A stretch of DNA of 64,000 nucleotides, taken from Octopus sinensis. Taxonomy: Eukaryota. Position numbers and translations under genes: made by a program. Positions within the stretch are counted from its first letter, which is position 1. Every line of letters begins with the position of its first letter. Below, one piece after another: positions 14,576 through 16,312 of the stretch. The DNA lies in NCBI RefSeq assembly GCF_006345805.1, contig NC_043008.1, positions 41,912,001 through 41,976,000 of the forward strand. The letters are read 5' to 3'. Below the pieces are notes generated by a model. That model was not told where the DNA came from. It was given only the letters and a program-made list of their open reading frames with translations, and did not search any database.

Positions 14576-15350
14576 TATACATATATTACGTATATATCTT
14601 CATATATACATATATATATGTTTTTTTATTGTGATTTATCTGCTTTTTTTTTGCTCTTTTTGCAATATTTGATGTACTTTTATTTTATGTTTTCGCCTTT
14701 GATATGTTCTTTAAATATCTTTTTCTGTTTGTTATTGTTTCGGTTTCAATGGTTTTCTTTTATTCCGGACACACAGCCACAGACACACTCATACACAAAT
14801 ACACATATATAAGCGTCTGTTTGTGTGTGTCAGTGCGTGCACACGCCTGTCTGTGCGTGTCTGTGTGTGACATAACAAGTATATATTGCATGTGACACAT
14901 TAAAGAACTCTAGTAAAAGCAAAACAATTGCAAAAATTGAGAGCAAGACATTCAGTCATATTTCTCACACGCACATACACACACATGCACATACATATAC
15001 ACGCACATACACACACACGCACCTACACACAGATAGGTATCCATTTGCGGTTATATTTGTATTTCATATATCATACAGACGAGTATAATATAGATACACG
15101 CACACTGACATACATATGTATATATATATTATATACACACATACACTCATCTATATCTATATATCCATTTATATATACATATATATATATGTACATATAT
15201 ATGTGTGTACATGTATATTATATATCTGTGTGTATGTATGCTTACAAAGGACAAACCCTTTGGTCAATTTCTCTGCGTAAAGGTGGTTCTCCAGCATGGC
15301 CGCAATCACATGACCGATGCAAGTAAAACAATAAGAAACTATTCCATCTT

Positions 15351-15382
15351 AGTCCCGAGCAACGCTGGGTATCTCTGCTTGT
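15351..15382 (+). mobile_element. Helitron-like 3' terminus
   Basis: GC hairpin CCCGAGC-AAC-GCTGGG about 8 nt before CTTG|T (degenerate CTAG|T). Confidence 0.45.
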
Positions 15383-15490
15383 ATATATATATATATATAT
15401 ATATATAGTAGTAGTAGTAGTAGTAGTATAGTAGTAGTAGTAGTAGTAACAGAAAAGAGGAATTTCGATTGTCCCCACGTGGTGGGTTGT

Positions 15491-15825
15491 AATATATATA
15501 AGAAATTTAAAAAGGAACATACGCACACTTACATGGTTTTAATATACTTTTTAATATATCGACCGGTTTCGCCATCCCTATTCATGATATTATGTTTAAT
15601 TTATTTGAATATATATTTTTTCTTAAGAAGAAATTTGGTCTATGTTCACTCGTGAATTTCATCACACATAACATGGACCAAATTTCTTCTTAAGAAAAAA
15701 TATATATCCAAATAAATTAAACATAATATCATGAATAGCGATAGCGAAACCGGTCGATATATTAAAAAGTGTATTAAAACCATGTAAGTGTGCGTATTTT
15801 CCTTTTTTAACTTCTGATACATATT
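15491..15825. repeat. Long inverted repeat (arms about 155 bp), probable inverted Penelope-like terminal repeat
   Basis: 15491-15646 is the near reverse complement of 15670-15825. Each arm carries a hammerhead-like motif. Confidence 0.9.
15726..15760 (+). ncRNA. Hammerhead-ribozyme-like motif, A3-U8 core variant
   Basis: ATATC-ATGAATA-GC(GATA)GC-GAAA-CCGG-TC-GATAT: 5-bp stem I, 2-bp stem II, palindromic stem III ACCGGT, GUC site. Mirror copy at 15556-15590 (-). Confidence 0.6.
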
Positions 15826-16130
15826 GTTGTATCTATGGAGATTCATTACGCCAATATTATTAACAAACGCGGTGGTTCAAGTCCATCTCTTTCTTATTAG
15901 TAATTTGGTTAAATATGCAGCTAATAGATTGCATGTTTAATTTGGTTAAACAGTCAGTCATTTGTTTTGTTTTTGTTTTTCATTGCTACTTGCAATATTT
16001 TGAATGGCCTTCGAAAGTCATGTGTTAATAATATTAATGGCATAATGACTCTCCCTAGACACAACAAAATTTATTTCAACACACGAATTCACACAAAGAA
16101 TCTTGCAAACGAGATACAAAAACGAAGTGG

Positions 16131-16196
<66 letters not shown>

Positions 16197-16281
16197 GATG
16201 GATGGATGGATGGATGGATGGATGGATGGATGAATGGAAGGATGGGTGGATGGATGGATAGATAGATAGATAGATAGATGG

Positions 16282-16312
<31 letters not shown>

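What the first reader, a model, noticed from the sequence alone, without database searches (positions are those of the whole stretch)
15491..15825. Hairpin carrying two hammerheads with a compensatory A3-U8 core
Seen: both arms read ATGAATA where CTGANGA is expected, with perfect stem I (ATATC/GATAT), GAAA, ACCGGT and GUC. Established: positions 3 and 8 form a tertiary Watson-Crick pair. Inference: the double change C3A plus G8U preserves that pair, so this may be a natural, rarely described core variant and not decay. A transcript would also fold into about 155 bp of dsRNA.
Basis: partly seen in the sequence, partly recalled or inferred. Interest (0 to 1): 0.72.

Follow-up and report, generated by a model that had tools for sequence, protein, structure and literature searches.

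The report
Mirror-image Penelope ends, A-U hammerhead core
This inverted repeat is a head-to-head double insertion of the tail end of an abundant Penelope-type jumping gene, and the small hammerhead motif in each arm has an A-U pair where hammerheads normally have C-G; the swap is the rule in this element family and likely preserves the fold, but cutting is untested.

Summary
Arms 15491-15646 and 15670-15825 are 94% complementary, and each strand carries one ATGAATA...GAAACCGGTC motif.

The hairpin is two 5'-truncated 3' ends of a Penelope-like element (PLE: RT plus C-terminal GIY-YIG), joined head-to-head beside a (TA)n/(GTA)n microsatellite. Only one arm has the optional PLE "tail". This is the published PLE insertion pattern. 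Other inverted pairs of the family have different junctions, so they arose independently.

A3-U8 is not a private mutation:
- In this family, 95 of the first 100 listed exact-context copies (216 in all) have it.
- In a diverged sister family with a different stem I and loop II, 36 of 46 have it.
- Related PLE lineages with the same miniature architecture have U3-A8 (17 hits) or U3.G8 (4).
- C3-G8 was seen in none.

Stem I and one stem II pair also covary, and the free position N7 varies.

So this is a real hammerhead-type motif with a pair-preserving core swap. It is a modest extension of the known natural U3-A8 covariation. Cleavage is untested. Helix III can form only between two copies, helix II is 2 bp, and in this locus a read-through transcript is predicted to fold as a long duplex (-200.9 kcal/mol) that hides the motif. 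The scan noted the same A3-U8 reading earlier on other DNA (e1-9504346, e1-9599274).

The parts
15378..15446 (.). (TA)n then (GTA)n microsatellite next to the tail-bearing end. Family copies end in (CTA)n(TA)n or (TA)n.
15447..15494 (-). Optional ~48-nt PLE 'tail' extension, present on the left copy only.
   Evidence: the family has a short and a long 3' end. Six of 6 close inverted pairs have the tail on exactly one arm. Matches passages in PMC8557442 and PMC11167929.
15447..15646 (-). Left copy: a 5'-truncated 3' UTR of the PLE, minus strand, with its 3' end pointing left.
15556..15590 (-). Minus-strand minimal hammerhead motif with an A3-U8 core. Stem II is damaged (GGGATGGC). Predicted cleavage is between 15561 and 15560.
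15647..15669 (+). The 'loop'. It is not filler but the extra 5' sequence of the right copy, colinear with the parent element from about 15645.
   Evidence: single copies match query 155-335. (loose ends before 15645 read the parent's upstream sequence).
15645..15825 (+). Right copy: a 5'-truncated 3' UTR of the PLE, plus strand, with the short (tail-less) 3' end.
15726..15760 (+). Plus-strand minimal type I hammerhead motif. Stem I is 15726-15730 with 15756-15760. A3 is 15731 and U8 is 15736. Stem II is 15738-15745, GAAA 15746-15749, and the palindrome CCGG 15750-15753. C17 is 15755, and predicted cleavage is between 15755 and 15756.

Best explanation
The 335-bp hairpin is two 5'-truncated 3' ends of a Penelope-like retrotransposon inserted head-to-head, and each arm carries that family's minimal type I hammerhead motif, whose A3-U8 core pair is the family's normal state and is predicted, not shown, to keep the ribozyme fold.

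Shown:
- The arms are the 3' UTR of a PLE with an RT plus C-terminal GIY-YIG ORF.
- Copies are 5'-truncated at many points, end in (TA)n, and have an optional tail.
- Inverted pairs always have their 3' ends outward and have different junctions.
- The motif keeps every invariant hammerhead core base except positions 3 and 8, which are A and U.
- Related lineages have U-A or U.G at 3-8 and compensating changes in stem I and stem II.

Inferred:
- The element's endonuclease likely cut both strands of a microsatellite target.
- Both 3' OH ends likely primed reverse transcription on the element's RNA, at either of two start sites (with or without the tail).
- The two short cDNAs were then joined in the middle.
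- In productive, tandem or multi-copy transcripts, the motif would pair with a second copy through the palindrome ACCGGU to build helix III, and would cut after C17.
- In this dead, ORF-less locus the motifs are passengers. A read-through transcript would fold into a duplex of about 155 bp that hides them.
For: Identity as a PLE:
- The 635-aa ORF upstream of the same motif has RVT_1 at 28.6 bits (cut-off 29.6) and C-terminal GIY-YIG at 28.8 bits (cut-off 22.6).
- It has a C-x4-C-x2-C linker before GIY-YIG.
- The motif lies about 285 nt after the end of the protein match.
- The upstream part of the longer copies is a decayed EN coding region.
- The 5' ends of the 18 single loci fall at about nine different places, with a common 3' end.
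- The family has short and tailed 3' ends, and 6 of 6 close inverted pairs have one tail only.
- Six inverted loci have six different junctions.
- All 7 motif pairs within 3.3 kb that I read in the lists are in minus-then-plus order.
- Both arms here share at least 4 minority variants: 15769/15547, 15781/15535, 15716/15600, 15718/15598.
- These features match published PLE features: an inverted 5'-truncated copy, a tail at one end, (TA)n targets (PMC8557442 passages), both strands cleaved and extended, and two internal RT start sites (PMC11167929 passages).

Core variant:
- 216 exact-context hits, control 0; 95 of the first 100 listed are A3/U8.
- sister family, 36 of 46 are A3/U8, with N7 being A, U or G.
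- of 61 non-A3 hits, 17 are U3-A8, 4 are U3.G8 and 0 are C3-G8.
- the sister loci encode PLE ORFs 50-64% identical to this family's.
- 81.6% of cells are paired against 71.9 +/- 0.7 for shuffles (0 of 500 reach it). The covariation score is 0.280 against 0.124, and 0.024-0.125 when slid.
- GCGAAACCGGTC is the longest between-lineage conserved run in the 3' UTR.
- the two-copy fold has a 6-bp intermolecular helix III and -15.3 kcal/mol, against -3.6 for one copy.
- contigs labelled as three organisms show no variant of 10% or more at positions 3 or 8.
Against: - No cleavage data exist for this motif.
- Helix II is only 2 bp plus a tetraloop, stem I is 5 AU-rich bp, and there are no loop-loop contacts. 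Published PLE min-HHRs with longer helix II already cut poorly in vitro (PMC4209133).
- For an Anolis PLE, hammerhead cleavage was not needed for insertion in vitro, and no RNA-seq reads began or ended at the cleavage site (PMC11167929).
- Naiad PLEs thrive without canonical hammerheads (PMC8557442).
- A majority state in a young repeat family only reflects its master copy. The covariation rests on few independent events (three or four lineages).
- Many rows of alignment A1 were picked with patterns that fix parts of the motif. L096-L115 were picked with 3 bp of stem I fixed, and I picked A3 rows among them.
- RVT_1 is 1 bit below Pfam's cut-off.
- No full-length copy was seen.
Confidence: 0.8

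Rival explanations
1. The motif is a decayed or vestigial hammerhead. It is carried along in the 3' UTR because the block has another role (RT or endonuclease recognition, or the DNA palindrome ACCGGT), or none, and it no longer cuts.
For: HHR cleavage was dispensable for insertion in vitro, and no reads at the cut site were found for an Anolis PLE (PMC11167929 passages). The authors of PMC8557442 raise the possibility that HHRs merely parasitize PLEs. Helix II is minimal at 2 bp, and the monomer fold is weak at -3.6 kcal/mol. A second conserved island upstream in the UTR shows that non-ribozyme constraints exist.
Against: What is conserved is exactly the hammerhead core (U4 G5 A6, A9, G12 A13 A14, A15.1, U16.1, C17), and what varies is N7. 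Stem I, the 3-8 pair and the 10.2-11.2 pair change in a compensating way between lineages. A protein or DNA site would not predict this.
Confidence: 0.35
2. The hairpin is a foldback or MITE-type DNA transposon, or a hairpin-RNA (miRNA/siRNA) gene, and the hammerhead likeness is incidental.
For: It has a long, near-perfect inverted repeat. Sub-threshold hits to long plant and animal miRNA precursor models exist, for example MIR6217 at 84 bits against a gathering score of 110.
Against: Most family members are single arms colinear with a PLE ORF. Inverted loci have different junctions and arm lengths. The ends are retroelement-type, with 5' truncation and microsatellite tails. The miRNA hits are all below gathering and are given on both strands, as any long hairpin would give.
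Confidence: 0.04
3. The two arms come from a later local inverted duplication of a single insertion, not from one double-primed insertion event.
For: The arms share minority variants, which a duplication would also give.
Against: The same head-to-head, 3'-ends-outward layout recurs at independent loci with different junctions, and with the tail on exactly one arm in 6 of 6 close pairs. The asymmetric ends (tail against no tail) are not what a copy of one arm gives.
Confidence: 0.08

Closest known systems
Minimal hammerheads (min-HHR) in the pLTRs of metazoan Penelope-like elements (Cervera and de la Pena 2014, PMC4209133; main text parts 1-2 read, one supplement file searched)
   Same: Both are type I motifs in a PLE repeat region with a short helix I. 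Neither has a stable helix III; both have a palindrome at 15.2-16.2 that implies action as a dimer. Both have a G10.1-C11.1 pair. Both occur as mostly solitary, truncated copies, with some dual motifs on opposite strands 100-700 bp apart. A core 3-8 covariation is reported there too.
   Different: The reported covariation is U3-A8 (Schistosoma Cercyon); here it is A3-U8. Helix II here is 2 bp plus a 4-nt loop, against 6-8 bp there. There is no unpaired base between A9 and 10.1. The sequence is highly uniform within the family.
Natural U3-A8 hammerheads (Perreault et al. 2011, PMC3088659; passages read)
   Same: A Watson-Crick-preserving replacement of the C3-G8 tertiary pair is seen in nature. 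Covarying constructs are said there to be active in vitro (their reference 32, not held here).
   Different: Those are mostly bacterial or phage motifs with full helices. The orientation of the pair is the reverse of the one here.
PLE insertion architecture (Craig et al. 2021, PMC8557442; Frangieh et al. 2024, PMC11167929; passages read)
   Same: An inverted 5'-truncated copy sits next to another copy. A 30-40-bp tail is present at one end only. (TA)n is the target. A CX2-5CxxC linker is present. Both DNA strands are cleaved and extended in vitro, and there are two internal RT start sites.
   Different: Here both partners are very short (about 180 and 200 nt), so the result is a compact hairpin with no ORF. 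The tail is about 48 nt.
Animal non-LTR retrozymes (Cervera and de la Pena 2020, PMC7229834, search listing only; Li et al. 2026 preprint 10.64898/2026.07.22.740005, abstract read)
   Same: Both are type I hammerheads with a weak helix III linked to PLE machinery.
   Different: Retrozymes are non-coding tandem units with canonical cores. This motif sits in the 3' UTR of an ORF-bearing PLE, and no tandem array was seen.

Membership tests
Hammerhead ribozyme (type I, minimal PLE form) | Invariant core bases U4 G5 A6, A9, G12 A13 A14, the A15.1-U16.1 pair, and H17 at the cut site | tested here: met
   All are present in both arms. They are invariant in 69 of 69 aligned rows, though several of these columns were fixed by the search patterns.
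Hammerhead ribozyme (type I, minimal PLE form) | C3 and G8 (canonical CUGANGA box) | tested here: not met
   The box reads AUGAAUA. C3-G8 was seen in 0 of the first 100 listed hits, 0 of 61 and 0 of 46. The Watson-Crick pairing that these positions make is kept as A-U and covaries to U-A in sister lineages.
Hammerhead ribozyme (type I, minimal PLE form) | Three helices around the core, supported by covariation | tested here: inconclusive
   Helix I: each of its five inner pairs has 9-26 rows changed on both sides. Helix II: only 2 bp, and one pair covaries (CG 60, UA 4, UG 3). Helix III: never varies and can only form between two copies.
Hammerhead ribozyme (type I, minimal PLE form) | Site-specific self-cleavage after position 17 | not testable with these tools
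   Only assembled contigs of public runs were available, and these cannot show RNA ends.
Hammerhead ribozyme (Rfam models) | Match to an Rfam hammerhead covariance model | tested here: not met
   There were 0 matches at gathering score in the window. No hammerhead family was among the 20 matches at E up to 10 in 15400-15900. This is expected for a motif without helix III and with a changed core.
Penelope-like element, C-terminal EN+ type | A single ORF with RT followed by a C-terminal GIY-YIG endonuclease | tested here: met
   The 635-aa 5'-truncated ORF has GIY-YIG at 28.8 bits, over the cut-off, at residues 542-630. RVT_1 at 28.6 bits is 1 bit under the cut-off, at residues 151-319.
Penelope-like element, C-terminal EN+ type | Insertion signature: 5' truncation, inverted adjacent copy, optional tail at one end, microsatellite target | tested here: met
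   compared with passages of PMC8557442
Penelope-like element, C-terminal EN+ type | pLTR formed by partial tandem copies flanking a full-length ORF | not tested
   No full-length copy was recovered. L070 and L057 are 5'-truncated.

The most novel reading that the evidence does not exclude
A3-U8 is a working, selected alternative to the C3-G8 pair of the hammerhead active site. It is fixed in a whole clade of Penelope-like elements (at least two families, more than a thousand copies) whose sister clades use U3-A8. These would be the first natural A3-U8 hammerheads, and also among the smallest (2-bp helix II, helix III only in trans). That would show that geometry, not base identity, is what the core needs at 3-8. 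In addition, head-to-head PLE insertions would seed the genome with perfect long hairpins that could feed small-RNA silencing of the same family.
Probability: 0.35. Interest if true: 0.55.

Novelty: new variant of a known kind. Interest (0 to 1): 0.4.

Why it matters
If the A3-U8 motif cuts, descriptor searches that fix CUGANGA, and the Rfam models, miss a whole class of retrotransposon hammerheads. It would also give a natural test set (A-U, U-A and U.G in one architecture) for how the 3-8 tertiary pair contributes to catalysis.

The locus is also a clean, compact example of the two-strand priming that has been proposed for Penelope-like elements. As it stands, it is a modest extension of a known covariation inside a known kind of insertion.

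Tried and rejected
- **Rfam.** There were no matches at gathering score. At E up to 10 there were only generic long-hairpin miRNA models, all below gathering.
- **RNA evidence.** No RNA holder was listed. The four runs laid were contigs only, two of them merely guessed to be RNA, so neither expression nor RNA ends can be read.
- **A possible third family.** Loose ends at 15724 and 15757 suggested a family sharing only the motif. A first pattern for it found only 5 point mutants of the main family. The family (here called C) was then found through.
- **Full-length element.** Extending two loci gave only 5'-truncated copies. No full-length element or upstream pLTR was seen.
- **Double-hammerhead energy.** My hand-written double-hammerhead structure could not be scored, because it has crossing pairs. 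Only the predicted two-copy MFE is reported.
- **Target-site duplication.** I did not look for one.
- **Papers.** Lunse et al. 2016 (PMC5785218) and Przybilski and Hammann 2007 (PMC1986816) are not held. What they say about A3-U8 is therefore unseen.
- **Literature searches for a natural A3-U8 hammerhead.** 'A3-U8' gave 0 papers. 'G8U/C3A' gave nothing relevant. 'U3-A8' gave only PMC4209133. One of two supplement files of PMC4209133 could be searched and holds no core starting AUGA; the other file could not be searched.
- **EN tree.** The tree of 39 rows over 135 columns is rough, as the bootstrap had not settled. It places the one usable family C row (L088) inside the family A clade (82/90), with the U3-A8 lineages outside. 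I use it only as a hint.

Full report
**1. The observation**

The window holds an inverted repeat with arms 15491-15646 and 15670-15825. The arms are 156 nt long, 94% complementary, and 23 nt apart. As RNA the 335 nt fold into one long hairpin of -200.9 kcal/mol. The mean for 100 shuffles is -47.6 +/- 4.7, giving z = -32.75.

The plus strand reads ATATC ATGAATA GCGATAGC GAAA CCGG TC GATAT at 15726-15760. The minus strand reads the same in the left arm, except that stem II is GGGATGGC. The pattern TGANNAGNNNNNNCGAAACCGGTC occurs twice in the window and in none of 100 shuffles.

Two points need correcting:
- The two motifs are on opposite strands.
- The left copy's stem II has changes at 15577 and 15573 where most contigs of the family read otherwise.

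Rfam finds no hammerhead here, either at gathering score or at E up to 10. Only generic long-hairpin miRNA models hit, all below their thresholds.

**2. What the hairpin is**

The window lies in a 2.7-Gb genome. The 335-nt query has 1423 first-look candidates there, of which 40 were scored. Nearly all the best matches cover only query positions 155-335, that is the loop plus the right arm, at 92-96% identity. The unit is therefore one arm, and the loop is simply the extra 5' sequence of the right copy.

The 18 single loci share a common 3' end. Their 5' ends fall at about nine different places, which is the mark of a retroelement.

The longer copies continue upstream into a decayed GIY-YIG coding region. 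One copy (L070) has a 635-aa open frame with these features:
- RVT_1 at 28.6 bits, 1 bit under Pfam's cut-off.
- A C-terminal GIY-YIG domain at 28.8 bits, over the cut-off.
- A C-x4-C-x2-C linker before the endonuclease.
- The same ATGAATA motif in its 3' UTR, about 285 nt after the end of the protein match.
- An end in (TA)n.

GIY-YIG matches are very numerous in this genome: 5029 candidates, with open frames up to 883 aa. This is a canonical endonuclease-bearing Penelope-like element (PLE). No full-length copy was recovered.

**3. How the hairpin most likely arose**

Family copies end in two ways. The short end runs into (TA)n. The long end adds a "tail" of about 48 nt followed by (CTA)n(TA)n.

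In the six inverted pairs whose motifs lie 166-305 nt apart (window, L002, L003, L004, L006, L013), exactly one arm has the tail, 6 of 6. The six junctions are all different, so these are independent events and not copies of one hairpin.

Every motif pair within 3.3 kb that I could read in the lists is in minus-then-plus order, with 3' ends outward. There are four such pairs, two and one. One pair (C7:102735344 and 102736205) has the same A3-to-U change in both arms.

In the window, both arms share at least four minority variants (15769/15547, 15781/15535, 15716/15600, 15718/15598). Each arm also has private changes.

All this matches what is printed for PLEs:
- An inverted 5'-truncated copy next to another copy, a 30-40-bp tail often at one end only, and (TA)n targets (PMC8557442, passages).
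- An enzyme that cleaves and extends both DNA strands and starts reverse transcription at two internal sites that define the tail (PMC11167929, passages).

I infer that both nicked strands of a microsatellite target primed cDNA synthesis on the element's RNA, and that the two short cDNAs were joined head-to-head. This step is inferred, not shown.

**4. The core variant**

*This family.* With the 35-nt context fixed and positions 3, 7 and 8 free, the genome has 216 exact hits and the reversed control has 0. Of the first 100 listed:
- 94 read ATGAATA.
- 1 reads ATGACTA.
- 1 reads CTGAATA.
- 1 reads ATGAAAA.
- 3 read ATGAACA.

None has C3-G8. A subfamily found through the protein, with no constraint on the motif, has the same core with stem I changed from AUAUC/GAUAU to GUAUC/GAUAC.

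*Non-A3 variants.* A search for any non-A at position 3 in the same architecture gave 61 hits, control 0:
- 38 are single-base departures with U8 (C3 13, G3 16, U3 9).
- 17 are U3-A8.
- 4 are U3.G8.
- 1 is G3/G8 and 1 is U3/C8.
- None is C3-G8.

*Sister lineages.* The U3-A8 hits belong to related PLE lineages ("B"). Their ORFs are 50-64% identical to this family's. They have a quite different but still paired stem I, and stem II is either GC..GC or GU..AC (7 of 7 are U3-A8).

A second A3-U8 family ("C") has stem I UGUC/GACA and loop GAAA. It has 46 hits, of which 36 are A3/U8. N7 is A in 11, U in 24 and G in 1.

*Covariation counts.* On a gapless alignment of 69 distinct 51-mers, the hammerhead pairing gives these values:

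| Measure | Observed | Shuffled | Slid partners |
|---|---|---|---|
| Cells paired | 81.6% | 71.9 +/- 0.7 (0 of 500 reach it) | 22.9-40.2% |
| Covariation score | 0.280 | 0.124 | 0.024-0.125 |

The 3-8 pair counts are AU 48, UA 11, GU 2, UG 2 and unpaired 6.

Three caveats apply:
- Many rows were chosen with patterns that fix the core. L096-L115 were also chosen with 3 bp of stem I fixed, and I picked A3 rows among them.
- The rows not constrained in stem I are L060-L070 and L076-L095.
- The changes trace back to few lineages.

*Conservation across lineages.* In an alignment of the 3' UTRs of 11 copies (3 A, 3 C, 5 B), GCGAAACCGGTC is the longest run conserved between lineages. Stem I and positions 3 and 8 differ between them. 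A rough endonuclease tree puts the one usable C row inside the A clade and the U3-A8 lineages outside.

*Other organisms.* Contigs of runs labelled as three organisms hold the family. None shows a variant of 10% or more at positions 3 or 8. The organism B run covers the right-arm motif with a single contig.

**5. How it would work**

One copy cannot form helix III, because the ACCGGU palindrome leaves no loop. Two copies are predicted to pair through it (6 bp) with stems I and II in place. The fold energy is -15.3 kcal/mol, against -3.6 for one copy. This is the dimer logic described for PLE min-HHRs (PMC4209133).

In this locus the motifs are passengers, since there is no ORF. A transcript through the whole repeat would bury the sense motif in the long duplex.

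Whether the A3-U8 core cuts is untested. Several points argue for caution:
- Helix II is only 2 bp.
- Published min-HHRs cut poorly in vitro (PMC4209133).
- For an Anolis PLE, cleavage was not needed for insertion in vitro, and no reads began or ended at the cleavage site (PMC11167929).
- In that same element, however, the C3G/G8C double mutant partly restored cleavage, which shows that the pair matters.

**6. Comparison and novelty**

Natural U3-A8 covariation is in print for bacterial and phage hammerheads (PMC3088659) and for Schistosoma Cercyon PLEs, about 1300 hits (PMC4209133).

I found no paper naming a natural A3-U8 hammerhead. Two key papers are not held, and one supplement file could not be searched.

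Earlier notes of this scan reached the same A3-U8 reading on other DNA of this genome (e1-9504346) and of another genome (e1-9599274). They call the host octopus-type, which I did not test.

My verdict is that this is a known kind of insertion carrying a new, pair-preserving variant of a known ribozyme motif. Its interest is moderate.

Noticed in passing
L033, L034, L043, L047, L048, L049 (about 430-590 nt after the GIY-YIG match): Another abundant PLE family (open frames up to 883 aa) carries a min-HHR with core TTGATAA (U3-A8), a 5-bp helix II GGTTC/GAACC, and the palindrome CATG in place of CCGG.
   Followed up: partly
L025:+ near 33-85; L045:- near 766: Hammerhead-like motifs with U3.G8 (TTGATGA / TTGAAGA) and the same GAAACCGGT block lie close to copies of the A3-U8 family.
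   Followed up: partly
3' UTRs of L070, L060, L012, L088, L092, L094, L076, L079, L084, L085, about 130-190 nt upstream of the motif: A second island conserved between PLE lineages (TTA[TC]CTCCCTTAC ... AATTACCTCCC) has no obvious role. It may be a protein-binding or priming element.
   Followed up: no
G000:C7:102735344-102736229: A head-to-head pair whose two arms carry the same A3-to-U change, as if both were copied from one variant RNA.
   Followed up: no
window 15662-15775 as covered by one contig of run X7 (organism B): That contig has C10.2-to-U and C11.1-to-U, which turn both stem II pairs into G.U wobbles rather than mismatches. It is a single contig.
   Followed up: no
window 15404-15448 and tail-bearing copies: The number of CTA/GTA triplets between the tail and (TA)n varies from about 1 to 14 between copies. 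This may come from slippage at priming.
   Followed up: no
window 16130-16300 and 15000-15220: Dense microsatellites lie around the insertion: (GATA)n, (GGAT)n, (TA)n and (CA)n-like runs.
   Followed up: no
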